A stretch of 52,712 nucleotides of DNA from a virus (IMGVR_UViG_3300021520_000236:1-52712); one strand, 5' to 3'; counted from the first letter of the stretch, positions 1,096-52,000 are shown. Program-made: numbers and translations. The notes: a model not told the origin generated them from the sequence alone.

Positions 1096-1167
1096 TCCTG
1101 AGTAGCTCAGTGGTAGAGCGGTCGGCTGTTAACCGATTGGTCGTAGGTTCGAGTCCTACCTCAGGAG
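1096..1167 (+). tRNA. tRNA-Asn(GTT), no encoded CCA; probable left integration site
   Basis: Acceptor TCCTGAG/CTCAGGA, D arm, anticodon arm GTCGG-CTGTTAA-CCGAT, T arm GTAGG-TTCGAGT-CCTAC; integrase immediately 3'. Confidence 0.97.
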
Positions 1168-1280
1168 CGGTTTTTTAAAACGTTGATTTTCAGAGTAAAC
1201 CTCCAGCAAACCAAGTCACACAAATGACTTCCGCGCATACTGTATGCACGGATATACAGGAACGAAAAGGAATAAGCATT

Positions 1281-1315
1281 GCCAAAAGGCCGACTTTTTG
1301 GCACTTTTTGGCACT
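1281..1315. repeat. Tandem ACTTTTTGGC x2 plus inverted GCCAAAAG; possible integrase arm-type sites
   Basis: Direct repeat 1293-1315 and inverted copy 1281-1288 between the tRNA and int. Confidence 0.45.
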
Positions 1316-1317
1316 GG

Positions 1318-2343
1318 ATGATTGGCCGACCGACAACAAAAAAGATGTCCGTGCGATACGACGAAGCACGGCAGGCGTGGCGCGTTGATGTCCCGCCGGC
1401 ACTCGGCAACGGGAAAAGAATCAGGAGATTTTTCCCCGATGAGACGGCGGCGGAAGTCTGGGTTGCCCAGCGGACAATCGAACGTGCGACCGGAGAGCCG
1501 GCGAAGGTGGCCGAGAATCCGACCGGCCAAGAATCGACCGTTCGGGCAATCGTCGCGCTTTATCTGGCCGCGAAGAAATCCGCCGTTGGGCCGGGACAGC
1601 ACAAGCTCGCCCGCATCCACCTGGGGAAGCTGGTCGCACGTTTCGGCTCCTACCCTGTCAACGGGGTCCGCGCTCTCGACTGCCGGGATTGGCTGGATGC
1701 AATGGATTGCGCACAGCGCACCCGCCACGGGGTTTTTGCGCTCTGCCGTTCGTTCTGGCGCTGGGCGGTCAGATACGACTACGCGGACCGCTCTCCGTTC
1801 GACAAGATGGAGTTCGTTGCCAAGGGCGAGGCTCCCAAGGCGATCCTGGCGCCGGGGCAGATGCGGTCGCTACTCAAGACGAACGAGCCGCACTACATGC
1901 GTGCCTGGATCGTCCTCGGGGGCTTCTGCGGGCTTCGGACTGAAGAGATGTTTCGCATGGATTGGGGCGCCGTAAATGTCCGCACGAAGGAGATACACGT
2001 TGCCCCCGGCGTCATCAAGCGCACGCGTGGAGTGCGCGAGCGGTATGTCGCAATTCCCGCAAATGCCCTGCGGATGCTCAAAAAGCTGCCAAGGGAAGGC
2101 CGTGTTATCCCGGTGAGCAAGACAACATTCCTCGTTCATGCGGCTCGGCTGGCGGGCATCCTGGGTGAAAAGCACTGGCCGAGGAACTGCCTGCGGCACT
2201 CAGCGGCATCTTATCATCTCGCCGCTGGGGAGGATGCCGGGAAGACGGCCCACTTTCTCGGGCATACTTCCAGCCAGACTGTTTTCTCCAACTACGCTCG
2301 GGCCGTCACCAAGCAGGCGGCGCGGGAGTGGTGGGGGATTTAG
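1318..2343 (+). CDS. int: Tyrosine recombinase / phage integrase (start 1318 or 1345)
   Basis: GLRTEE (R), IKRT (K), NCLRHS (RH), LGH and NYA (Y) catalytic motifs; next to tRNA-Asn. Confidence 0.93.
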   Translation: MIGRPTTKKMSVRYDEARQAWRVDVPPALGNGKRIRRFFPDETAAEVWVAQRTIERATGEPAKVAENPTGQESTVRAIVALYLAAKKSAVGPGQHKLARIHLGKLVARFGSYPVNGVRALDCRDWLDAMDCAQRTRHGVFALCRSFWRWAVRYDYADRSPFDKMEFVAKGEAPKAILAPGQMRSLLKTNEPHYMRAWIVLGGFCGLRTEEMFRMDWGAVNVRTKEIHVAPGVIKRTRGVRERYVAIPANALRMLKKLPREGRVIPVSKTTFLVHAARLAGILGEKHWPRNCLRHSAASYHLAAGEDAGKTAHFLGHTSSQTVFSNYARAVTKQAAREWWGI

Positions 2344-17415: not shown

Positions 17416-17416
17416 T

Positions 17417-17493
17417 GCCAGGGTGGAGAAGTTGGTTATCTCGCCAGCCCCATAAGCTGGAGATCGCAGGTTCAAATCCTGCCCCTGCAACCA
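17417..17493 (+). tRNA. Phage tRNA-Met(CAT), fMet-like but atypical, with encoded CCA
   Basis: D stem GAGA/TCTC, anticodon arm CCAGC-CCCATAA-GCTGG, T arm GCAGG-TTCAAAT-CCTGC, 3' ACCA. Confidence 0.88.
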
Positions 17494-34922: not shown

Positions 34923-35309
34923 TTGAAACACATCGTCATGGCTTCTTCGTTTGCGGACCCCGCCGATGTCGCCGCGTTCCGCCGCTGCAAGGCCAAGGGC
35001 ATGTCGGACATCGAGGCGTTCCGATTCGGCGACAATGCCATAGGCCGATGGGGAGACTCGACGGCAGAGGGATCTGGTCCGTCGTGCGCTCTGCCGCCAG
35101 AGGATTGGAAACCGCTTGGCGACAAGGCCCATCTTGCCAAGGTGCGGGTTTTTTCAAACGGGAAAGAGGTTGTCTGTCTTCTTAAGGACACAATGCCTGC
35201 ACGCGCCCACATCACGAATAAATGCGGGATAGACCTGAATCCTGATGCGTGCGAGGCGCTCGGGCTGCATCCGCCTGTATTGACGGCGGCTACTTGGGAG
35301 TGGGTTTAA
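34923..35309 (+). CDS. RlpA-like double-psi beta-barrel protein; candidate endolysin
   Basis: ASSF, CAL, VRV..NGKEV....D..P, IDL.P.A...LG. Confidence 0.65.
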   Translation: MKHIVMASSFADPADVAAFRRCKAKGMSDIEAFRFGDNAIGRWGDSTAEGSGPSCALPPEDWKPLGDKAHLAKVRVFSNGKEVVCLLKDTMPARAHITNKCGIDLNPDACEALGLHPPVLTAATWEWV

Positions 35310-35741
35310 TCCCAGCATCCTCCTGCGCCATGTCGCAAGCAGCCGCAAGGAACATGATCGCCGCTTTGTGCTGGCCGTCCTTGTTGGCGATGGTCGCGCA
35401 GGAAATGGCCGATGACAGAATTTCTTGTCCGGTGACCTTGGCGCGACCTTTGATGATCTCCTCAACCTGCTTGCGTTCTTCCGGCCAGCGAGTGCCGTAA
35501 AGGTCGCGCATGGTAGGTGTCCCTGACCGCCGACGTTCTGCATATAAGAATTGTGTTCCTCGCGTGGTTTCCCAAAATGTTGTTCCGCGCATTTTCGGCA
35601 GTAAAATTCTCCGCAATAGAGGCACCGATACGCGAATCGAAGCCCTATCGTCTTGCCGCAATGACACGTTACATGTGCTCCCATGATTCCTGCTTGTAGG
35701 AACTGCGCTGCTACCCTTTCCCGTTTTGATGAAGTCGGCAT
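35154..35741 (-). CDS. Cys-rich zinc-finger protein reading into S0 (C-terminal extension probably due to the lost stop)
   Basis: CHC...CLYC....C..C...H then NVGGQG. Confidence 0.5.
   Translation of the reverse strand: MPTSSKRERVAAQFLQAGIMGAHVTCHCGKTIGLRFAYRCLYCGEFYCRKCAEQHFGKPREEHNSYMQNVGGQGHLPCATFTALAGRKNASRLRRSSKVAPRSPDKKFCHRPFPARPSPTRTASTKRRSCSLRLLATWRRRMLGLNPLPSSRRQYRRMQPERLARIRIQVYPAFIRDVGACRHCVLKKTDNLFPV
35290..35511 (-). CDS. Hypothetical protein, last gene of arm B, converging on the lysin
   Basis: MRDLYGTRWPEE...; 3' overlap with lysin. Confidence 0.45.
   Translation of the reverse strand: MRDLYGTRWPEERKQVEEIIKGRAKVTGQEILSSAISCATIANKDGQHKAAIMFLAAACDMAQEDAGIKPTPK
35517..35541 (+). 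repeat. attC-like half site S0 (L'-R' only)
   Basis: CCCTGACCGCCGAC-GTTCTGC; GTTCTGCAT complements ATGCAGAAC at 36014-36022. Confidence 0.65.
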
Positions 35742-35853
35742 TTATCGTGTGGGCTTGAGAAGCAGGACCACGAGCGTCCAGAAGATCAGGAAGAGGCTCC
35801 AGTCTATCGCGTGCAGGAGCTTCAAGGCTTCGGTGATTTGTTCCGGCGTCATA

Positions 35854-36072
35854 CTACGAAGAGAATTGCAGGATTCCGTCGATCAGCAGGAACGGTTGCG
35901 CCCACCATTGATCTTGGTTTCGATCCAAGAACGTGTGGCCGTCGGCCTTCATCTGCTTGTGGGTTTCGTTGAGGTAGTCCGGCCTATAGGTGGCGCTGGT
36001 CGCGCATCCCGAAATGCAGAACAAGGCGAGGCAGCTAATCGCCGCCAGCCCGGTGTTGAATTTACGTTTCAT
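35854..36072 (-). CDS. Small lipoprotein with signal peptide encoded by attC S1
   Basis: MKRKFNTGLAAISCLALFCISGC. Confidence 0.6.
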   Translation of the reverse strand: MKRKFNTGLAAISCLALFCISGCATSATYRPDYLNETHKQMKADGHTFLDRNQDQWWAQPFLLIDGILQFSS

Positions 36073-36130
36073 TTTACGAGTTCCCTTTCACTGTTTTTGG
36101 TTGTGCCGCGTCGGGCGGCGATTGCTGCTC
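36016..36130 (+). repeat. attC-like site S1 (R' end deleted)
   Basis: GCAGAAC-AAGGC-GAGGCAGCTAATCGCCGCC ... GGCGGCGATTGCTGCTC. Confidence 0.7.
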
Positions 36131-36161
36131 TTAATTATTTTTGCATGAGCGAAAAATATCT

Positions 36162-36252
36162 TGAGAACAAGGCCGTTCAGAGAACGGCGGGGCGACACAA
36201 CTTTCGATTTCACGCCTCATCCTCCCGCCGTCCCTGACGGCCAGCGTTCGCA
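36162..36252 (+). repeat. attC-like site S2
   Basis: TGAGAAC...GGCCGTTCAGAGAACGGCGGG / CCCGCCGTCCCTGACGGCC...GTTCGCA; two extra bases in left arm. Confidence 0.88.
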
Positions 36253-36545
36253 GAATATATGCGCCCCCTACGGACTCCTCGCGGGTAGATCAGCACGATT
36301 TTTGTCGGCATGAACTCCGCGTTTAAGGGCAGCCATTTCCGGCTTTTGATTTTGTGGGCACCGTAAACGTGCCAGTGATTCGGTCCCATTTGCAGAGGCT
36401 CGCCCCAGAAAATTCCGGCATCCTTCCAGCGGCGCATTGTTTCCGGCCCGTTGGCTCTGATGATCCGCATTCTTGAAATATCGTGCGAACAATCCGGTGC
36501 AGGAAATCGCTGGCCGGTGGGTGTTGAGATGGAGCGAGTCGTCAT
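36210..36545 (-). CDS. Cassette-borne hypothetical protein
   Basis: Starts in S3 loop, stops in S2 loop. Confidence 0.6.
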   Translation of the reverse strand: MTTRSISTPTGQRFPAPDCSHDISRMRIIRANGPETMRRWKDAGIFWGEPLQMGPNHWHVYGAHKIKSRKWLPLNAEFMPTKIVLIYPRGVRRGRIYSANAGRQGRREDEA

Positions 36546-36604
36546 ATCAGTGTGTTTTCGGTTCCGCCGTGCCAGCCAGCGATTTCTGACCGGCAGCGTT
36601 CGCA
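36484..36604 (+). repeat. attC-like site S3
   Basis: TGCGAAC...CCGGTGCAGGAAATCGCTGGC / GCCAGCGATTTCTGACCGG...GTTCGCA. Confidence 0.9.
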
Positions 36605-36858
36605 GGAATATCCTCCGGTTCGTAGGTCGCAGCGAAGATGTCTGGCTTGCACGGATAAAACTCTCCCTTCACTCCCTTGATGATCCAGTCGCCAATAGAT
36701 GCTGTCATTACGCCTTCAAGAGTTGGAATAAACACGCCTTGCGTGTCGCTGAATGCGATGTGTTCAAGCCCCATGAATGCAAGAATTTCTGATCTGCTAT
36801 CGGTGGTTCCGTTGTATTGGATTGCTTCGATGACTACTGGTTTTTTGCGGTATCTCAT
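36547..36858 (-). CDS. Widespread phage protein (PGDYG-like family), cassette-borne
   Basis: YRKKPVVIEA.Q, IPTLEG.M.A..GDWIIKGVKGEFYPCKPDIF..TYE. Confidence 0.88.
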   Translation of the reverse strand: MRYRKKPVVIEAIQYNGTTDSRSEILAFMGLEHIAFSDTQGVFIPTLEGVMTASIGDWIIKGVKGEFYPCKPDIFAATYEPEDIPANAAGQKSLAGTAEPKTH

Positions 36859-36884
36859 ATTATTGGTTGCGGGTTAAAAATCAC

Positions 36885-36937
36885 TGCGAACAAGTCAGTG
36901 GGCCGAATCCTTCGGATCGGCCACTTTTGCGTTAGCC
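36885..36937 (+). repeat. attC-like site S4 (minimal, 53 bp)
   Basis: TGCGAAC-AAGTC-AGTGGGCCGAATCC-TTC-GGATCGGCCACT-TTTGC-GTTAGCC. Confidence 0.88.
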
Positions 36938-37257
36938 AAAATATCGCGGAGCCTGTATATGACCGCCGCCGTGGGTTCCGCATCCTTCCAGAGCGGCGTT
37001 TCCCATCGGTCAACCACGGCTTGCGCGGCCATCTCCACTTCCTCCAGACGCTCGGCATGTTGCCAAAGATTTTCCCTGAGTTTATTGTTTTCCGCGATCA
37101 GTTCCCGAACCCGATGGACTACCGAGTGACCGGGGGCAATCGGCGTTCCGATAGCCTCCGCAATTTGCTGGAGATGTTCCGCGAAGCGTGTCCGCATTTC
37201 ACGCGCGGCAGAATACGCGGATTGTAGGTCTTTGTGGTCCGGATATTGAGAGTTCAT
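36895..37257 (-). CDS. Cassette-borne hypothetical protein
   Basis: AQAVVDRWETPLWKD motif; stop inside S4. Confidence 0.7.
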   Translation of the reverse strand: MNSQYPDHKDLQSAYSAAREMRTRFAEHLQQIAEAIGTPIAPGHSVVHRVRELIAENNKLRENLWQHAERLEEVEMAAQAVVDRWETPLWKDAEPTAAVIYRLRDILANAKVADPKDSAH

Positions 37258-37664
37258 TCCTTTTCCTCCAAGAGCAGATGCAGGATATACTGTTCCTCCC
37301 CCATGATCTTTTGGCAGAGTTTGTCGCAGTCGAGTTGGCGCGAGTGCCTGAGATCAGATCCAGCCTTCGCTTGCTCCTTGAGTTTTGCGGCGAGCGCATA
37401 CGCCTCATTCAGATTCTTGAGGTTGGCGACATGGGTTCTGATTCGCTGGTCCATCAAGGCCAGCTTGCCCTTGTAGATCGGCGGGAGTTTCGAGATCAGG
37501 CCGGTGATTGACAGGTATTGATCCCATGCGTCGTCTCCGGTCCTCCATTGCATTTCGCAGGATGCCGTTGAGCGGAATCCTTTCGGGGTCCGCTTCATCT
37601 TTTGCACGGTGATTATCAGTTTGTCCCGCATGTCGGCGGGGTTTTCGTCGGGTGTCAGTTTCAT
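37254..37664 (-). CDS. Cassette-borne hypothetical protein
   Basis: ATGA-coupled to 36895-37257. Confidence 0.65.
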   Translation of the reverse strand: MKLTPDENPADMRDKLIITVQKMKRTPKGFRSTASCEMQWRTGDDAWDQYLSITGLISKLPPIYKGKLALMDQRIRTHVANLKNLNEAYALAAKLKEQAKAGSDLRHSRQLDCDKLCQKIMGEEQYILHLLLEEKE

Positions 37665-37671
37665 AAAAATT

Positions 37672-37737
37672 GGCTAACAATGTGGTGCAGGAGAATGGCT
37701 CCGCTTCGCTACGCCATCCCTGACCACTGCGTTAGCC
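37672..37737 (+). repeat. attC-like site S5
   Basis: GGCTAAC-AAT-GTGGTGCAGGAGAATGGC ... GCCATCCCTGACCAC-TGC-GTTAGCC. Confidence 0.92.
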
Positions 37738-38015
37738 TTATCGTGGTGACTCACCAGTATTGCGTGCTCCTTGTCGGCGTTGGTCACAATCTCTCGTAGT
37801 CTGTCGTTTCCCCACCTTAACTCCGGCCCGAGGGTGGCAAGTGTTCCGTCCACACCGCTGATGTAGTATTGCACATCCCCACCATACAGCCCGTAGTGGA
37901 TTCTTTCTTGCAAATCCACAGGTAGAGCGGCTAACAGCCCATCCACCGAATCCTCACCCGTGCGGGCTTGGGGTGGTGGCTGCGTTTCAGTTTCGTTCGA
38001 TGTCGTAGTTTGCAT
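37674..38015 (-). CDS. Cassette-borne hypothetical protein
   Basis: Starts in S6 loop, stops at the TAG of S5 R''. Confidence 0.65.
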   Translation of the reverse strand: MQTTTSNETETQPPPQARTGEDSVDGLLAALPVDLQERIHYGLYGGDVQYYISGVDGTLATLGPELRWGNDRLREIVTNADKEHAILVSHHDKANAVVRDGVAKRSHSPAPHC

Positions 38016-38059
38016 ATTAGTCTTTCTTTGGGTGAGGATCGGTGATGGTGATGTTCGGC
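37929..38059 (+). repeat. attC-like site S6
   Basis: GGCTAAC...CCATCCACCGAATCCTCACCC / GGGTGAGGATCGGTGATGG...GTTCGGC; extra C and A. Confidence 0.92.
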
Positions 38060-38730
38060 CTACGGCAGCGGATGCCTTTGGTGACAGTAGGCCATGGCAA
38101 GTAGCAAAGCTCTTTTAGAAGCCGGAAGTTCTGGCATACATCCCGCCATTTTCCATCCCAGCGGACCTGATCGCCTTCCTGCAACTTTGTGCCGGGTTCA
38201 AGCTCGTTGGGATCGCGTTCAGAGTCGAAGTGTTTGCCGCATCCGCCTTTGTCTTTTTGGCAGTAGTGCCCGAAGTAGTGAGTTCCATCGAAGTCGATGT
38301 CTCTGGTCCATGTATAGACGTGTTCCTTGCTGTGGCATTGCGGGCACGATATGGCCGAACATGCGATGGAGCGAACCACAGGCCGCTCGGGAGTTTCATT
38401 TGGATTCATAGGTTTTTCTTTCTGCGGCCCGTGGCCGCTCATCTGGTCGTTCGACAAAATACCGCGCACTTCCGAGAGCGGAATGTCGCTGCCTTTCCCA
38501 GATGAGATATGCACCGGAAACGCCCGATTTGAGAAGTCCATGAGACATCCCTTTGAGCAGATGTCCCAATCCTTTTGCCGGTTTAGTTCCACGAGTTGCG
38601 TTGAGCCTCCATGTTCCTTCAGCGAATACCAGCCGGAGAACGGATGCCCTCCGATCCAGCCGGAGCCTTCGTCGGTGACTTCCTTCCCGCAGACATCGCA
38701 TTTCAGAATTGTTGATTTTCGAGTTGCCAT
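38017..38730 (-). CDS. In-frame fusion of two cassette ORFs (two Cys-rich domains) through S7; internal ATG at 38409
   Basis: CDVC...CSKGC domain, attC-encoded linker, CPQC...C......C domain. Confidence 0.65.
   Translation of the reverse strand: MATRKSTILKCDVCGKEVTDEGSGWIGGHPFSGWYSLKEHGGSTQLVELNRQKDWDICSKGCLMDFSNRAFPVHISSGKGSDIPLSEVRGILSNDQMSGHGPQKEKPMNPNETPERPVVRSIACSAISCPQCHSKEHVYTWTRDIDFDGTHYFGHYCQKDKGGCGKHFDSERDPNELEPGTKLQEGDQVRWDGKWRDVCQNFRLLKELCYLPWPTVTKGIRCRRPNITITDPHPKKD
38354..38455 (+). repeat. attC-like site S7
   Basis: GCCGAAC...GATGGAGCGAACCACAGGCCGC / GCGGCCCGTGGCCGCTCATC...GTTCGAC. Confidence 0.88.
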
Positions 38731-38736
38731 AAAAAT

Positions 38737-38838
38737 GTCGAACCAAGTCGTCCAGCGAACCCCTACCCGCCAGACGGTTGTTTTTGATTTTCGGGATTCT
38801 CGCCAGCGGGCAGGGGCCGCTGACGACCGACGTTCGAC
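38737..38838 (+). repeat. attC-like site S8
   Basis: GTCGAAC...GTCGTCCAGCGAACCCCTACCCGC / GCGGGCAGGGGCCGCTGACGAC...GTTCGAC. Confidence 0.9.
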
Positions 38839-39260
38839 AAAATATGGGATGCGATTTCGTTGACCTCACCGCAGGAAAGGCAGTCCTCGTGGCATCCTGC
38901 GTAGGATTCCGTTTTGATCTTTTCCATCGCGGCGCGAAACTGGCCGTTTCGTTTCCAGTGCCGGTCGCGTTGTGCGAGAGTTGCGATCAGGTCCGCTTCG
39001 AGCTTGTCCCCGGCATTGATGAGCCTCGCGTTCTCGGCGGCGAGGTTGTCGCGCTCTTTCCTGTCCTCATCGCGAATAATTTCCCCATCGCGCCACATGT
39101 TCAACTCGGTTTCGATGGAGGCGTTCTCGGATTCAACCTTGTAGTATTTCGCAACGATGTCTGCGGCGGCGAGCAATGCGGGGACCTTCCCTGCCAGCGT
39201 TCCTTTTTTGAGCGTGGCGGCTAGCTCGCGCAGGGTGGTTTCGGTTTGGTTGGTGGTCAT
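38763..39260 (-). CDS. Coiled-coil hypothetical protein ending inside S8
   Basis: Heptad pattern; C-terminus NVGRQRPLPAG is attC-encoded. Confidence 0.7.
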   Translation of the reverse strand: MTTNQTETTLRELAATLKKGTLAGKVPALLAAADIVAKYYKVESENASIETELNMWRDGEIIRDEDRKERDNLAAENARLINAGDKLEADLIATLAQRDRHWKRNGQFRAAMEKIKTESYAGCHEDCLSCGEVNEIASHILSNVGRQRPLPAGENPENQKQPSGG

Positions 39261-39320: not shown

Positions 39321-40841
39321 CTATAATAACTTTGCTGGTTCCGGTTTCGTGTAGATCGGGTTGTATCTGTTGAGCCTTCCCCGGATTATCACCCTGTCTC
39401 TTTCGGCCTTTGCGAGAGCATCGTAGGCGACGGACTTCCCGCATCCGGTGAGGTCTTTGATCTTGTAAAGGAGTTCTGTTCTCGTGATCTGATCCTCGAA
39501 AAGATCGGCAACGTCTTGGCTTGAAAGTGCGGCCTTTTTATTCCCTGGCGCTTTCTTTTCGAGCCCTACGGACTGCCGGAACTCCTCCGGGTCGAAGTCG
39601 GGGTTAATCCGGTAGATCCCAACTTCCTCATCAAGCATCACGCCCATCTCCGGGAACTGTGCGCCGTTGTTGTTCTTCCCGCATGCCATTACCATCAGGC
39701 GCGGGTTGTCCGGGTCTTGAGGTGCCAGGTTCACCTGTGCACGGGTCCATGCGTAGAGAGCTTTTGAGTTGCGCCCGAAAGATGATTTGTCCCATCCTAC
39801 GGCCTTTGCGGCTCCGAGTTTTCCGGTAGCCGAGTGATGCACGACGACAGGGACACGCTGCGGGTTCCCCTTCTTGACCGCCCGAGAGAGAGCTGTAACA
39901 ACCTGCTTCATGTCACGGTCGTTGTTCAGTTCCAGACTGGTGAAGGTATTGAGCGGATCGAAACAAACGAAGTGCGGGTCGTGGTCGGCAATCGCTTGCT
40001 CGATATGCCGGATCTCGTCAGTCTCCAAGTCGAGGAAGGTATCTTCGTCCTTCTCTACCGTGTGGATGACAAAGCAGTCGTCGATAAGAAGCGTATCCTC
40101 TTTTTGAAATCCCAACCCTCTCACCATCTTGGTGATGTCAGTTTTTAGGCGGCGGTTTGAGTTCTCCGTTTGGAATACGAGCCACTTCTTCCCGCGAGCG
40201 TGTGTTTCAATCCCGAGGAACGGGCGCCCGGTTATCATGCAAAAAGCTAGCTGCATGAGGAGTCTGCTTTTCCCGATCCCTCCGGGGCCGAGGATCGTTA
40301 CCGGCTGGCTGGCGGCGATGATCCTATCCCCGAAATAATTGTCGGACTCGTCGAAGTCCATATTCACGAGTTCTGTAATCGTGCGGATGGACAGGCGGGA
40401 CTTCTTGCTTTTTACCGTGTGGTTGAGCTGCTTGAAGTTCAGCGCGATCTCTGTCGGGTCTTCGCCCTTCTTCACCGCTACTTGGATTTGCTGTGAGACG
40501 GTCGAGTTGTGCGCGTTGACCTTGTGCTTCCAGAGGGTTTCGCAATATCCCTCGAAGACTGCCGGGACCGAAGACTGCCCCTCGTTTATCAGGGCATCCG
40601 CGATGGCCTGGTTCACCTCCGGGGAGCCGCCAGCAAAGAAGCTCGCGATGGAAAGGTAATCGAATGTCTCCCCGTTCTCGTGCCGCCTTGCAAGTTCTGC
40701 GAATACCTGCCGGTAATGGTCCGCGACGAACGATTCGGTAGTGACCTCGTATTTGTCAACGATTCCCCAGCGGTCTTTCCCTGACAGGAGCCCGGCGAGG
40801 ATGCCGAGTTCGGCGGCTTGTGTCGGCCAGTTGTTCTTCAT
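39321..40841 (-). CDS. RepA-like SF4 helicase (AAA_25) with DnaB-like N-terminal domain
   Basis: GPGGIGKS, QTEN, FDPL, VVHH, R.S, KNN. Confidence 0.85.
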   Translation of the reverse strand: MKNNWPTQAAELGILAGLLSGKDRWGIVDKYEVTTESFVADHYRQVFAELARRHENGETFDYLSIASFFAGGSPEVNQAIADALINEGQSSVPAVFEGYCETLWKHKVNAHNSTVSQQIQVAVKKGEDPTEIALNFKQLNHTVKSKKSRLSIRTITELVNMDFDESDNYFGDRIIAASQPVTILGPGGIGKSRLLMQLAFCMITGRPFLGIETHARGKKWLVFQTENSNRRLKTDITKMVRGLGFQKEDTLLIDDCFVIHTVEKDEDTFLDLETDEIRHIEQAIADHDPHFVCFDPLNTFTSLELNNDRDMKQVVTALSRAVKKGNPQRVPVVVHHSATGKLGAAKAVGWDKSSFGRNSKALYAWTRAQVNLAPQDPDNPRLMVMACGKNNNGAQFPEMGVMLDEEVGIYRINPDFDPEEFRQSVGLEKKAPGNKKAALSSQDVADLFEDQITRTELLYKIKDLTGCGKSVAYDALAKAERDRVIIRGRLNRYNPIYTKPEPAKLL

Positions 40842-49227: not shown

Positions 49228-49346
49228 GGATGCAGTCAACCACACTTCCTAAAAGGAATCAAGTTGAATCAAAAACGGGAAATGCCGTAAATATCCGCCG
49301 TAACTCATCCGGCATAGATTCACAATCTCTTGATTATGAAGGGGAG

Positions 49347-49419
<73 letters not shown>

Positions 49420-49651
49420 ATTTGCCGGATTCCCTCTGTAGATTGATCCGGTTTCGGTGTCAACGAGATTTTTCACCGAGGCGATTTGACCCTCTATGGC
49501 TCTGTATAGAATTTGAGGTTGCCACCCCTCCGTGCCACCCCAATTCGCAAGAAACACGGTGGGGGGGGCCGATTTCCAGATTTCCGAAGAAAAATGGAAA
49601 AAAGATGGGGGCGAGGGGGTTGACATTTTCGGGTTTCCAATCAGTAGGGGC

Positions 49652-50764
49652 ATGAAAAGAAAATCATGCACACAGTTGACCGGACTCTCCCGAAAGAAAA
49701 CCGGAATTTACCAATACCGTCCACAAGTCAACGGGAAGAGGACGGCATTCTCTCTCAGGACAAAAGATTTCGAAGAGGCGATACACAGGGCACTTCTGAT
49801 TAAGGATACGACTCCTGTGCAGACCAAGGATAGTCTCCTTTCGCTTGTTGAGGAGTTCGTCCGGTTCAAAGAAAACAAAGGCAAGTTCAGTCGGTTCAGC
49901 GTTTCCGACAAATACGGTATGCTCAAAAGATTCGCCACCTTTTGTGGTGACAACATTCCGGTTGGGAGCATGAATCCGAAAAAAATCGGTGAGTTTTTTG
50001 CCGATTGCGAGAATCGCTCTTTGGCGCAATCTACCTTGTCAGGCTACAAAACCAACATTCAGAGCTTTTTTTCGTGGTGCAACGAGGAAAAACGACTGCA
50101 TGTTCATCATTTTATATCAGCGTTAAAAGAGTTCGAATTTGTGTCAGAGGCGAGGACTGATTACATCCCACAGTCGGAAATCAATCGCCTCTTAAATGAA
50201 TGTGACGACGAGGTTGTAAAATACGTGCTGATCTGTGGTGCCTTTCTTGGAATGCGAAAAAACGAGATCATTGAGTCAAGGCGGGAGTGGTTCGATTTTG
50301 ATCGTCAAATCTGTCGTGTTCAGAATTGCAATGCGAAAAAGGCGCAAGCTGAAAGCCTTGATCTGTTTCGCGTGAAAAACAAAAAAGAGAGGGATGTTCC
50401 GATCATTCCCGAATTGCAGGAATGGTTGGCGAGGTTTGTTGAAGGGAAAGAATATTGTCTGGCAAGTGGAAAAAGGCGCGGGAAATCAAAGTATCGCTTC
50501 AACTACGAGAAGAGGTTCAAGACTTTTCTAAAAAAGAAAGGGATGCTACATGTTTCAAGCCACACACTGAGGCATTCATTTGCTACAAATCTAGCAATAG
50601 GGAATGTTCGGATTGAAAAAATAGCTTCAATGCTAGGGGATTCGATCAAAACAACAGAAAAACATTACGCGAGGTTTATCCCAGACCAATCATCAGTAGG
50701 AATTCTATCGTTGGGACTTGTGACTCAGGAATCTCCTATTGAATCAGATAGTTGGAGCATCTAG
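49652..50764 (+). CDS. int: Tyrosine recombinase / integrase
   Basis: GMRKNE, KNK..R.VP, HTLRHSFA, LGD, HYA. Confidence 0.92.
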   Translation: MKRKSCTQLTGLSRKKTGIYQYRPQVNGKRTAFSLRTKDFEEAIHRALLIKDTTPVQTKDSLLSLVEEFVRFKENKGKFSRFSVSDKYGMLKRFATFCGDNIPVGSMNPKKIGEFFADCENRSLAQSTLSGYKTNIQSFFSWCNEEKRLHVHHFISALKEFEFVSEARTDYIPQSEINRLLNECDDEVVKYVLICGAFLGMRKNEIIESRREWFDFDRQICRVQNCNAKKAQAESLDLFRVKNKKERDVPIIPELQEWLARFVEGKEYCLASGKRRGKSKYRFNYEKRFKTFLKKKGMLHVSSHTLRHSFATNLAIGNVRIEKIASMLGDSIKTTEKHYARFIPDQSSVGILSLGLVTQESPIESDSWSI

Positions 50765-51015
50765 GAGACTCCGATAGCAATAGGCTCTTCAGACTCTATA
50801 TGAATACCCGATTTGAAATACAGGAGAACTTTATCAATATCTTCACGCCAATACAATGTCATCTTATGACGTTTTTCAAATGGCTTGAGGTGATATTCGA
50901 CCTCAAGAATCTGGAGTATTCTTTCACCACCAACGTAGGCAATAGTATCTCGTCTATTCAATATTTTCGCTATTGGCGAATGTTCCCAAGGTGCAACATA
51001 AGTCCTATTTTTCAT
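50761..51015 (-). CDS. Possible excisionase-like protein
   Basis: Convergent with int; LNRRD...YVG and LY.REDID. Confidence 0.45.
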   Translation of the reverse strand: MKNRTYVAPWEHSPIAKILNRRDTIAYVGGERILQILEVEYHLKPFEKRHKMTLYWREDIDKVLLYFKSGIHIESEEPIAIGVS

Positions 51016-51331
51016 AAGAATATTTATTGCGTGTCTTTAGAATGCAAGGGTTTGGTCAGACATTTGTCCTATAAAAGTGCCGAAATGTTCTTGAAAAATC
51101 AGAATCCAGTTAAAAATAGATTCATTTTTAATCTGGCAGCACCTCGAATAAGCCGTCTTGGCCATTATTACACTAAGTCCAACCCAGCACGATTTGAAAT
51201 TACGCGCTCGAATATAAATATCTACAAACACCAATCAGAACACCGTGATATATCCTGAACTTACGAGTGGTGAATCGAATGTCGTTGCGCTCTTGGAAAA
51301 CAAACGCCTGACCTATGGTATGTCCTGAATA

Positions 51332-52000
51332 ATGAAAACCGAATACGTGACAGACCTTCAAAAACTTCTCCAAGCCTCAGAATCTTGGGAACCCTCTGAC
51401 CCTTCGCCTCAAGCGAAACTTTCAGAATACCCCCACCCCTCTGAAAACCCATATACCATTGTTGATTCCCAAGGTTTCCACAAAGGCAGGAAGGTTGATC
51501 CATTCTTCCATACGATCAAAGACATCCCATTCCGAATATTTCTGACGTTCCATTATCGCACCCCCCACTTTTTCAAAGCAACGCAAGACGCTATATCGGC
51601 GAGAAGATGGGTGATAAAAGACCTGCTTTACCGGACGAAAAAGGAACTGAACCTGAGAGTGAAGGACGTTCAGTATTTCGGGGCCGCTGAACGTGGAGAT
51701 TCAACTCGGATACATACACACACCTTGATCTACCTGAAAGACCATATTCGGCACATGGAACAGGCGATTCTGAACAAGCTCATTAAACTCATGCCCCGTG
51801 ACATCGTGGACACTCCCAAACCTCTCTATGGCATGACTCCTCCAAATGCAGAACTGGTTCGTGATTCCGAAGCTGTCTGCTCGTATATCACAAAACTCAG
51901 CGACCACCCGCTGCATGAGGAACACCATTCTGACCATTTCGATAAATTCGTGAATGCCTTGCGGAAATACCAGAAACGGATGACTGGCGCGAAGGACTGA
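51332..52000 (+). CDS. HUH rolling-circle replication initiator-like protein
   Basis: Motif I FLTFHY, motif II E......IHTHTLI, motif III YITK. Confidence 0.7.
   Translation: MKTEYVTDLQKLLQASESWEPSDPSPQAKLSEYPHPSENPYTIVDSQGFHKGRKVDPFFHTIKDIPFRIFLTFHYRTPHFFKATQDAISARRWVIKDLLYRTKKELNLRVKDVQYFGAAERGDSTRIHTHTLIYLKDHIRHMEQAILNKLIKLMPRDIVDTPKPLYGMTPPNAELVRDSEAVCSYITKLSDHPLHEEHHSDHFDKFVNALRKYQKRMTGAKD

What the first reader, a model, noticed from the sequence alone, without database searches (positions are those of the whole stretch)
35535..38838. Every gene crosses the crossover core in the same frame, so C-termini and stops come from the neighbouring cassette
Seen: all eight ORFs entering an R' core read its AAC as Asn: Q-N-VGG (S0), A-N-AGR (S2), A-N-AAG (S3), A-N-AKV (S4), A-N-AVV (S5), P-N-ITI (S6), S-N-DQM (S7), S-N-VGR (S8). 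By chance that is about (1/3)^7. Stops lie inside S2, S3, S4, S5, S6 and S8, and S3 and S6 hold a stop and the next ATG 1 nt apart in the loop. Frames leaving through R'' vary, as expected because that side stays with its gene. Inference: attC acts as a standardised coding connector, so reshuffling keeps translation intact and coupled while swapping tails.
Basis: partly seen in the sequence, partly recalled or inferred. Interest (0 to 1): 0.88.

Follow-up and report, generated by a model that had tools for sequence, protein, structure and literature searches.

The report
Phage attC array with one reading frame
A prophage carries a row of integron-type recombination sites in which each cassette's last gene has no stop codon, runs across the recombination point in one fixed reading frame and, in six of eight cases, stops inside the next site, a rule that recurs in other viral sequences.

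Summary
Window 35535-38838 holds nine integron-type attC sites: eight found by a covariance model, plus one half-site. They sit in the early operon of a provirus that has no integron integrase.

A model built from these sites finds attC arrays beside integron integrases in Verrucomicrobiota genomes, and the bottom strand of class 1 attC sites. So the sites are genuine, and the window's genes lie on the recombinogenic bottom strand, the reverse of the canonical layout.

All 8 ORFs that reach an R' box lack their own stop and read AAC as Asn. Six stop inside the next attC.

Chance is not (1/3)^7. AAC falls in that frame in 49-63% of cases in this phage's own genes, giving P about 0.003-0.025. 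But the rule recurs in eight other viral contigs (24 of 27 crossing ORFs). Their attC sites, pooled with the window's, carry a stop in that frame in 39 of 44 sites, and in 13 of 13 sites that no ORF enters in that frame.

Natural junctions fall exactly on the AAC/GTT triplets, but at both boxes. The closest non-cassette homologue diverges six codons before the Asn, not after it.

The 'standardised connector' idea is plausible (precedent: ORF-11 of attI1) but untested. S0 and S7 supply no stop.

The parts
38737..38838 (-). attC site S8: R' box GTCGAAC, hairpin, 3' box GTTCGAC
   Evidence: Fold -28.8 kcal/mol, z -3.9. Covariance model hit of 101 bits on the minus strand against 11 bits on the plus strand.
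38354..38455 (-). attC site S7. It has no stop in the Asn frame, so the ORF reads through. Its 3' box GTTCGGC matches the R' box of S6.
   Evidence: 88-90 bits.
37929..38059 (-). attC site S6, with a long loop that holds the stop and, 1 nt later, the next ATG. The 3' arm encodes the next protein's N-terminal part.
   Evidence: 71 bits; ORF coordinates.
37672..37737 (-). attC site S5. The stop TAG lies inside the 3' box GTTAGCC.
   Evidence: Fold z -4.3, with 0 of 200 shuffles as good; 56-63 bits.
36885..36937 (-). attC site S4, the short one. Both of its boxes are break points in contigs of other runs.
   Evidence: 44.6 bits. Loose ends at 36889 (run X7) and 36933 (run X9).
36484..36604 (-). 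attC site S3, boxes TGCGAAC / GTTCGCA. The loop holds the stop and, 1 nt later, the next ATG.
   Evidence: Inverted repeat I1; fold z -4.45; 81-99 bits.
36162..36252 (-). attC site S2. It is followed directly by S1, so the cassette between them is empty.
   Evidence: 81 bits; sequence.
36016..36151 (-). attC site S1 with a degenerate R' (no AAC). Its loop and 3' arm encode the start and signal peptide of the 72-aa lipoprotein-like ORF. Its 3' box GTTCTGCA pairs with the R' box TGCAGAAC of S0.
   Evidence: Model hit of 34.5 bits and 81.7 bits; sequence.
35517..35541 (-). Half-site S0: R' box plus an L'-like arm only. There is no 3' arm and no stop in the Asn frame.
   Evidence: No model hit at E up to 10 with filters off. 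The fold is not better than shuffles (z -1.9).
38763..39260 (-). ORF of 165 aa crossing S8, with a 22-residue tail after the Asn.
   Evidence: The codon score favours this strand (0.32 bits per codon against the antisense frame), while the overlapping plus-strand ORF scores -0.30.
38017..38730 (-). ORF of 237 aa crossing S7 (read-through) and S6. It contains two zinc-ribbon-like halves.
   Evidence: weak zinc-ribbon hit.
37674..38015 (-). ORF of 113 aa that starts in the S6 loop and crosses S5.
37254..37664 (-). ORF of 136 aa, an internal gene of a two-gene cassette. It has its own stop, which overlaps the next ATG (ATGA).
36895..37257 (-). ORF of 120 aa crossing S4.
36547..36858 (-). ORF of 103 aa crossing S3. 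Residues 1-83 belong to the widespread phage family phrog_419; residues 84-103 are encoded by the R' flank and by S3.
   Evidence: (E 2.3e-35, residues 1-83).
36210..36545 (-). ORF of 111 aa that starts in the S3 loop and crosses S2.
35154..35741 (-). ORF crossing S0. Only the first 66 codons (35544-35741, B-box-like zinc finger) look like a domain. The frame then stays open for 128 codons with no coding signal.
   Evidence: (E 2e-4; -0.18 bits per codon for 35154-35543).
35742..36072 (-). Two small internal genes of the last cassette: 72 aa lipoprotein-like and 36 aa membrane-like. Each has its own stop, placed 0-1 nt before the next ATG.

Best explanation
What it is. The stretch is a cluster of nine integron attC sites with no integrase nearby (a CALIN). 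It lies at the end of the early operon of a provirus, probably of a Verrucomicrobiota host.

Layout. The layout is the reverse of a canonical integron: the genes lie on the strand that folds as the recombinogenic bottom strand. Each cassette therefore reads, in gene sense: C, hairpin, 3' box, gene(s), R' box ending in AA. The gene's 3' end abuts the crossover point AA|C.

The rule. The last gene of every cassette has no stop codon of its own. It reads the invariant AAC as Asn and ends 11-22 codons later at a stop inside the next cassette's attC. That stop is often next to the next gene's start.

Proposed mechanism (inferred, not shown). This is a shared convention among such phage-borne cassettes. 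Because every stop-less gene enters in the same frame, each attC needs to keep a stop in only that frame. Any neighbour is then terminated, and ribosomes that melt the 5' arm of the hairpin are released near the cassette's own start, giving termination-reinitiation coupling.

Shown here: the attC identity, the strand polarity, the frame rule in this and eight other contigs, the excess of stops in that frame, and junctions on the triplets.

Inferred: that selection maintains the rule, that the tails are translated, and that coupling occurs.
For: attC identity
- Folds show a 7-8 bp R stem, a 2-3 nt unpaired spacer and bulged bases on the arm opposite the AAC.
- Model R2, built from 11 sites, finds arrays in 15 of 151 Verrucomicrobiota genomes.
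- In G085 and G009 these arrays lie next to integron integrases: TIGR02249 scores 313, 268 and 384 bits against a cut-off of 265, plus one at 263.

Polarity
- R2 matches the strand opposite aadA7 in a class 1 integron.
- In the chromosomal arrays, ORFs are antisense to the model strand in 22 of 23 classified sites, plus 2 of 2 class 1 sites. In the window they are sense in 6 of 7 classified sites; S6 was called antisense by a small margin, and an eighth site had no AAC at the expected place.
- This agrees with the rule that extrahelical bases lie opposite the AAC on the bottom strand (PMC5027507, passages).

Cassette signature
- The 3' box of each site matches the R' box on the far side of the following gene in 7 of 7 box pairs read (S8 to S1; 8 of 8 or 7 of 7 bases). 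The eighth junction, S2's 3' box to S1's R', cannot be matched because that R' is degenerate. In the four sites S7, S6, S4 and S2, the 3' box does not match its own hairpin partner (sequences).

Junctions at the AAC
- In L003 a duplicated gene keeps homology through TTCTGCGAAC and then differs.
- One contig of run X9 leaves the window exactly after 36933.

Frame
- 8 of 8 in the window.
- 24 of 27 crossing ORFs in contigs L070, L080, L085, L094, L140, L239, L244 and L250; 21 of 22 if only ORFs with a codon score of 5 bits or more are kept.
- Three of these are DNA methylases by Pfam (E 2.7e-42, 9.3e-28, 3.7e-18) whose domains end 12-35 residues before the ORF end.
- Control: in canonical arrays, top-strand ORFs that run into the other AAC box use another frame (6 of 8).

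Stops
- Sites of these arrays hold a stop in the Asn frame in 39 of 44, against 23 and 21 of 44 in the other frames.
- In the 13 sites not entered in that frame the count is 13 of 13, against 8 and 6.
- Shuffles reached these counts 0 of 2000 and 2 of 2000 times.

Tight stop-start spacing
- This is the style of the operon: 1 nt in S3 and S6, 9 nt in S5, and 0-1 nt or overlap at three internal gene junctions.

Precedent
- ORF-11 of attI1 crosses the crossover point, takes its stop from the inserted cassette's core and couples translation (PMC8876359, passages).
Against: - S0 gives no stop for 128 codons, and S7 gives none, so two ORFs are fused.
- Gaps from stop to next start are 32, 36 and 137 nt at S8, S4 and S2.
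- Over 30 sites, a predicted start lies within -25 to +15 nt of the stop in 14 of 30 for the Asn frame, against 6 and 9 of 30 for the other frames. That is only a weak excess, and it rests on crude start calls.
- In the wider set of 62 same-strand viral sites there is no excess of stops in that frame (29, 42 and 28 of 62), and 46 of 62 genes have their own stop at or before the box. The convention, if real, holds only for a subset of arrays.
- The eight contigs of the stop test were chosen because crossing is common in them.
- Codon composition alone favours the Asn frame (0.49-0.63).
- One junction lies at the other box of S4 (run X7, 36889), so the hairpin does not always travel with the downstream gene.
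- Gene calls outside the window rest on my own codon model, not on a gene finder.
Confidence: 0.5

Rival explanations
1. Neutral by-product of composition. In G+C-rich coding DNA, AAC followed by G fits best as a codon: C at the third position, G at the next first position. Cassettes that formed or inserted at an AAC near a gene's end therefore sit in the Asn frame more often than not. The tails and stops are simply whatever follows.
For: - Frame share of AAC is 0.49, of KCNAAC 0.55, of AACG 0.63 and of CKAACG 7 of 10 in the window's long genes.
- At a baseline of 0.63, the window's 8 of 8 has P = 0.025.
- S0 and S7 show that no stop is guaranteed.
Against: - In the other contigs the baseline is lower (0.35 for AAC, 0.43 for AACG), yet 24 of 27 ORFs use the frame.
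- All 35 together give P = 1.5e-4 even at a baseline of 0.63.
- Composition does not explain the excess of stops in that frame inside the sites, including 13 of 13 unused sites.
- Canonical arrays show a different frame at their AAC box.
Confidence: 0.25
2. Shared descent of a 3' end module. A conserved stretch of 15-18 nt (an AT-rich motif plus the R' box) spreads together with attC sites and is grafted onto gene ends. The frame is inherited with the module rather than selected.
For: - The close homologue without an attC diverges at the start of this flank, not at the AAC.
- Two other cassette-borne homologues keep I-(P)-A-N-A-A although their bodies are only 57-60% identical (P0139; L250).
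- An ATATT motif lies upstream of the core in S8, S7, S4, S3, S2 and S0.
- T-rich flanks also precede R' in chromosomal arrays.
Against: - The spacing between ATATT and the AAC varies: 6 nt in S8, S7, S4 and S3, 5 nt in S2 and 3 nt in L250. The frame stays locked to the AAC, not to the motif.
- S5, S6 and most crossing ORFs of the other contigs lack the motif.
Confidence: 0.15
3. Annotation artefact. The real genes would lie on the plus strand, as in canonical cassettes, and the minus-strand ORFs would be antisense shadows whose frame is set by a plus-strand ATG near R'.
For: - At S8 a plus-strand ATG lies 5 nt after the core, in frame with GTT, and opens a 127-codon ORF that is codon-aligned with the minus-strand ORF.
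- Long antisense ORFs are common in this G+C range.
Against: - Codon scores favour the minus strand for every array ORF and disfavour the plus-strand ORFs.
- 36547-36858 is phrog_419 (E 2.3e-35) and has thousands of homologues.
- No other site has a usable plus-strand ATG and ORF.
- Methylases in the other contigs confirm same-strand crossing.
Confidence: 0.03

Closest known systems
Clusters of attC sites without integrase (CALINs) in phage genomes (Qi et al. 2023, PMC9892861; abstract, section 3.4 and passages read)
   Same: An array of attC sites with small cargo genes in a phage and no integron integrase. Methylases are among the cargo in related arrays.
   Different: That paper describes 17 CALINs and, in the parts I read, says nothing about reading frames, genes without stops or gene strand relative to attC polarity. 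Its Tetrasphaera phage TJE1 gave one marginal model hit in the canonical orientation. Here the genes are on the bottom strand. Its supplementary tables could not be opened.
ORF-11 (and ORF-18) of attI1 in class 1 integrons, as described in the review PMC8876359 (passages read)
   Same: A reading frame that spans the crossover point, takes its stop from the neighbouring cassette and is said to couple translation of the next gene.
   Different: ORF-11 is one short leader peptide at attI on the top strand. Here full-length cargo genes cross attC R' boxes on the bottom strand, at every junction of the array.
Short ORFs inside attC that relieve the hairpin barrier by termination-reinitiation, and fused cassettes (review PMC8876359, passages; PMC4670013, search listing only)
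   Same: Translation through attC hairpins and stop-start proximity. S7 resembles a fused cassette.
   Different: Those cases start a new short ORF in the attC, or have lost the attC. Here the upstream gene itself supplies the ribosomes and the attC is intact.
Chromosomal integrons of Verrucomicrobiota
   Same: The same attC family by covariance model, the same box sequences (GCCGAAC, GCGAAC, GCTAAC) and T-rich R' flanks.
   Different: They sit beside an integron integrase and carry genes on the top strand, which start just after R' (CAT upstream of the box on the model strand; 22 of 23).

Membership tests
integron attC site | Imperfect hairpin with inverted 7-bp boxes RYYYAAC / GTTRRRY forming the R stem | tested here: met
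   Seven sites (S2-S8) have both boxes. S1 lacks the AAC and S0 lacks the 3' half. The boxes depart from RRR at one position (GTTCGAC, GTTCGCA).
integron attC site | Unpaired central spacer and extrahelical bases on the arm opposite the AAC of the recombined strand | tested here: met
   Folds of S8, S7, S6, S5, S3 and S2 show a 2-3 nt spacer and one to three bulges on the 3' arm of the gene-sense strand. Criterion from PMC5027507 passages.
integron attC site | Same family as sites found next to an integron integrase | tested here: met
   R2 hits form arrays adjacent to TIGR02249 matches above the cut-off in G085 (contigs C10 and C3) and G009 (contig C7). R2 also hits two class 1 attC sites (24 and 23 bits).
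integron attC site | Detected by the curated attC model of IntegronFinder or HattCI | not testable with these tools
   Neither program nor model is on hand. Rfam holds no attC family; the window gave only three tRNAs.
integron attC site | Recombined by an integron integrase between A and C of the AAC | tested here: inconclusive
Natural break points lie on the triplets: L003 and run X9 at 36933 for the AAC box, but run X7 at 36889 for the other box.
complete integron | intI gene and attI next to the array | tested here: not met
   The best TIGR02249 score in the whole record is 23.6 bits against a cut-off of 265. The two tyrosine recombinases are ordinary Phage_integrase proteins. The array is therefore filed as a CALIN.
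canonical cassette layout | Cargo gene on the top strand, followed by its own attC, with the stop before or in the first box | tested here: not met
   The genes are on the model (bottom) strand. The last gene of each cassette has no stop before the box.
translational coupling across a crossover point (ORF-11 type) | ORF spans the crossover and its stop is supplied by the neighbour | tested here: met
   By sequence, in 6 of 8 ORFs. That the tail is exchangeable follows from the junctions at the AAC.
translational coupling across a crossover point (ORF-11 type) | Upstream translation raises expression of the next gene | not testable with these tools
   There is only spacing evidence.

The most novel reading that the evidence does not exclude
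Phage-borne integron cassettes form a pool of their own, with a grammar different from that of bacterial integrons. The genes are on the recombinogenic strand and often lack stop codons. All of them enter the crossover triplet AAC as an Asn codon. Each attC then serves both as recombination site and as a standard translational connector: it supplies the stop in one agreed frame and releases ribosomes at the next start. Cassettes therefore stay expressible in any order inside a phage operon.
Probability: 0.35. Interest if true: 0.8.

Novelty: new variant of a known kind. Interest (0 to 1): 0.62.

Why it matters
- Integron cassettes are usually described as a gene followed by its own site, expressed from one promoter. 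How downstream cassettes get translated past the hairpins is only partly understood.
- An array in which genes give up their stop codons and share one frame at the crossover would show a recombination site shaped by translation as well as by the recombinase.
- It would give a simple, testable rule for how shuffled genes stay expressed in a phage operon.
- The reversed gene polarity seen here and in most viral arrays sampled (62 of 71 classified sites) suggests that phage arrays are not just borrowed pieces of bacterial integrons. This bears on where cassettes come from.
- The result also warns annotators that C-termini in such arrays are site-encoded and context-dependent.

Tried and rejected
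- A single-protein scan of viral contigs with the helicase found nothing. An alignment of 16 helicases then gave 8 loci.
- MAFFT on five sites misaligned the 3' arms.
- Rfam has no matching family.
- The idea that the real genes are on the plus strand was rejected.
- The idea that stop codons in the other two frames force the Asn frame was rejected. GAAC-type boxes and the conserved 5' arm are open in all frames (read). Only TAAC boxes close one frame.
- The idea that attC sites in general carry a stop in the Asn frame was rejected for the wide viral set and for canonical sites (6, 10 and 5 of 24 for the three frames).
- Phage TJE1 gave only one marginal hit (E 0.011), so it says little.
- No RNA holder was listed for the stretch.
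- Laying contigs of four runs gave no joints. Bins 39491-39924 had no cover in any of the four runs. That is no finding.
- The stop-to-start test uses a longest-ORF start rule and is weak.
- Supplementary tables of PMC9892861, which may list the orientation and ORFs of its 17 CALINs, could not be opened.
- Literature searches listed no paper on a fixed frame across attC or on stop-less cassettes. They cover only the held library.

Full report
**What is there.** The window is one IMG/VR provirus record of 52,712 bases. The plus strand carries late genes. The minus strand carries an early operon: a Bro-N protein, a PD-(D/E)XK nuclease, an AAA_24 ATPase and a DnaB-like AAA_25 helicase at 39321-40841.

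Named helicase relatives come from Chthoniobacteraceae and other Verrucomicrobiota records. The best genome hit, however, is a Gemmatimonadaceae MAG at 49% identity, so the host call is tentative. Lake and freshwater metagenome runs hold the stretch.

Downstream of the helicase, on the minus strand, lie eleven small ORFs separated by imperfect hairpins.

**The sites are attC sites.**
- Folded as single-stranded DNA, S8, S7, S6, S5, S3 and S2 show the same plan. It has a 7-8 bp stem made of NNNNAAC and GTTNNNN, then 2-3 unpaired bases, then a stem with one to three bulged bases on the 3' arm, then a variable loop. At most 3 of 200 shuffles fold as well.
- A covariance model built from seven sites, then rebuilt from eleven, scores 44-101 bits on the minus strand and at most 17 bits on the plus strand. 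It finds an eighth site, S1.
- S0 is only a half-site.
- The model finds sites in 15 of 151 Verrucomicrobiota genomes.
- In G085 and G009 the hits form arrays with 400-700 bp spacing. These lie next to integron integrases that pass the TIGR02249 cut-off (313, 268 and 384 bits; one scores 263).
- The window itself has no such integrase: the best score is 23.6 bits. It is therefore a CALIN. CALINs are already known in phages (PMC9892861; abstract and section 3.4 read).

**Polarity.**
- In a class 1 integron fetched as a control, the model matches the strand opposite aadA7, which is the bottom strand.
- In the chromosomal arrays, the model strand is the integrase strand. By a codon model, cassette ORFs are antisense to it in 22 of 23 classified sites, plus 2 of 2 class 1 sites.
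- Nivina et al. state that extrahelical bases lie opposite the AAC arm on the bottom strand, and that cleavage is between A and C of the R' triplet (PMC5027507, passages).
- In the window the bulges lie opposite the AAC on the gene-sense strand. The genes are truly on that strand: codon scores favour it, 36547-36858 is phrog_419 at E 2.3e-35, and that ORF has thousands of homologues.

The ORFs enter R', the crossover box. This layout is the reverse of the canonical one.

**Cassette signature and junctions.**
- For the 7 box pairs that can be read (S8 to S1), the 3' box of a site matches the R' box beyond the following gene. The eighth junction, S2's 3' box to S1's R', cannot be matched because that R' is degenerate. 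Examples: GTTCGACA / TGTCGAAC, GTTCGGCC / GGCCGAAC, GTTAGCC / GGCTAAC twice, GTTCGCA / TGCGAAC twice, GTTCTGCA / TGCAGAAC.
- Within S7, S6, S4 and S2 the two boxes of one hairpin do not match each other.
- In L003, a contig whose helicase is 72% identical, a gene occurs twice. Both copies run through TTCTGCGAAC. One is then followed by an attC hairpin and the other by unrelated DNA.
- Contigs of other runs leave the window exactly at the triplets of S4: one after 36933 (run X9, at the AAC box) and one before 36889 (run X7, at the other box). It is one contig each, at low depth.
- The two new boxes are nearly complementary to each other, so they may be the two ends of one further cassette.
- Both boxes therefore appear as exchange points. 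The hairpin is not strictly tied to the downstream gene.

**The observation.**
- 8 of 8 ORFs that reach an R' box read AAC as Asn, and none has a stop before it.
- Six stop inside the next site after 11-22 residues. S7 reads through, and S0 stays open for 128 codons.
- S3 and S6 have the stop and the next ATG 1 nt apart.
- Internal genes of multi-gene cassettes do have their own stops, placed 0-1 nt before the next ATG or overlapping it. Tight coupling is therefore the style of the whole operon.

**How unlikely is it?**
- AAC falls in this frame in 0.49 of cases in the window's long genes, and AACG in 0.63. So 8 of 8 has P = 0.003-0.025, not 5e-4.
- I then looked elsewhere. A pattern scan of viral contigs plus the model gave 72 sites. 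Of these, 71 were classified, and in 62 the upstream gene is on the model strand.
- Of those 62 genes, 46 have their own stop. It is often built into the box: TGAGAAC in 11 cases and TAAC in 7.
- Fifteen cross the box: 12 in the Asn frame, 2 and 1 in the others.
- A filter-off search of eight contigs, three of them found through homologues of 36547-36858, raised this to 24 of 27. Counting only well-scored ORFs gives 21 of 22.
- Three crossing ORFs are N6_N4 DNA methylases whose domains end just before the core.
- In L250 a phrog_419-type gene ends ...YEPVEYIAN-AAVSGG..., and two further ORFs there cross as MAN-ATV and TPN-DKA.
- As a control, top-strand ORFs of canonical arrays mostly stop before their AAC box (15 of 24). 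Of the 8 that cross, 6 use another frame.

**Do the sites provide the stop?**
- In the window plus those eight contigs, a stop in the Asn frame lies between the crossover and the end of the site in 39 of 44 sites. The other frames give 23 and 21.
- In the 13 sites not entered in that frame, the count is 13 of 13, against 8 and 6.
- Shuffles reached these counts 0 and 2 times in 2000. Fisher P is 9e-6 and 0.003.
- The stop positions vary (6 to 66 nt), so they are not one inherited motif.
- The contigs were chosen because crossing is common in them. In the wide set there is no such excess.

**The homologue test.**
- Homologues of 36547-36858 are typically 80-90 residues long and end just after TYEP.
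- P0122 is 95% identical in the body and sits in contig L273 in a plain operon without an attC. It diverges right after TYEP, six codons before the Asn.
- P0139 (...VEDIAN-AAGERPLPAGDKP) and the L250 gene keep the flank and the Asn and then differ.
- So the last five or six codons belong to an R' flank, and the residues after the Asn belong to the neighbouring site. Similarity does not end 'exactly after the Asn'.

**Reading.** The structure is solid. The function is inferred.
- The best fit is a convention among a subset of phage-borne cassettes. Stop-less genes enter the crossover in one frame, and each attC keeps a stop in that frame near its own start.
- The known parallel is ORF-11 of attI1 (PMC8876359, passages).
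- Composition bias and a shared 3' module can each explain part of the pattern. Neither explains the stop excess or the frame staying locked to the AAC while the AT-rich motif shifts (spacing of 3, 5 or 6 nt).
- S0 and S7 show the cost of the arrangement when the neighbour supplies no stop.

**Limits.**
- Gene strand and frame outside the window rest on my own codon model, with homology support in five cases.
- E-values from the model are rough.
- Arrays within one contig are not independent.
- No standard attC finder was available, and supplements were closed.
- No expression data exist for the stretch.

Noticed in passing
IMG/VR loci L070-L149 versus L060-L063 and L190: In the viral contigs sampled, the gene upstream of an attC lies on the bottom (model) strand in 62 of 71 classified sites. 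In chromosomal integrons next to an integrase it is the top strand in 22 of 23, plus 2 of 2 class 1 sites. In L085 two convergent arrays each keep this same-strand layout. Two of the source records are rated 100% complete viruses and have no integron integrase.
   Followed up: partly
L134, L084, L108 and related loci: In one homogeneous attC family, genes end on stops built into the R' box or its flank. TGAGAAC occurs 11 times and TAAC 7 times, and the flank often reads TAG and TGA in two frames (TTAGGNTGAGAAC). The gene's last bases are thus the last bases of the cassette.
   Followed up: partly
L060-L062 (genome G085): In canonical Verrucomicrobiota arrays, 6 of the 8 top-strand ORFs that run into their own attC do so in one frame (xAA Cxx). 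They stop at a conserved TGA 38 or 44 nt into the site.
   Followed up: no
window 36016-36168: S2 is followed directly by S1, so the cassette between them is empty. S1 has lost the AAC of its R' box. The start, signal peptide and lipobox-like motif of the 72-aa ORF 35854-36072 are encoded by the loop and 3' arm of S1.
   Followed up: partly
window 1096-2343 and 49346-52000: There is a tyrosine recombinase at each end of the record. One lies beside tRNA-Asn (anticodon GTT). The other lies beside tRNA-Gly and is followed by a REP_ORF2/G2P-like replication protein. The record may therefore hold two elements or some host flank. A tRNA-Met lies inside the late region at 17416-17493.
   Followed up: no
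L003 1989-4025: In the related contig, the 678-aa helicase-like ORF upstream of the DnaB-like helicase contains an inserted stretch that looks like an intein, read by eye from the translation. In this contig the attC array lies upstream of the replication genes, not downstream as in the window.
   Followed up: no
window 39293: One contig of run X7 follows the array and the 165-aa ORF up to 39293 and then continues with unrelated sequence. The array can therefore sit behind a different upstream neighbour.
   Followed up: no
G052 contigs C1, C16, C23, C24, C7: Nine model hits of nearly uniform length (135-140 nt) are scattered over one Verrucomicrobiota genome that has no integron integrase above the cut-off. 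They could be a dispersed repeat derived from attC.
   Followed up: no
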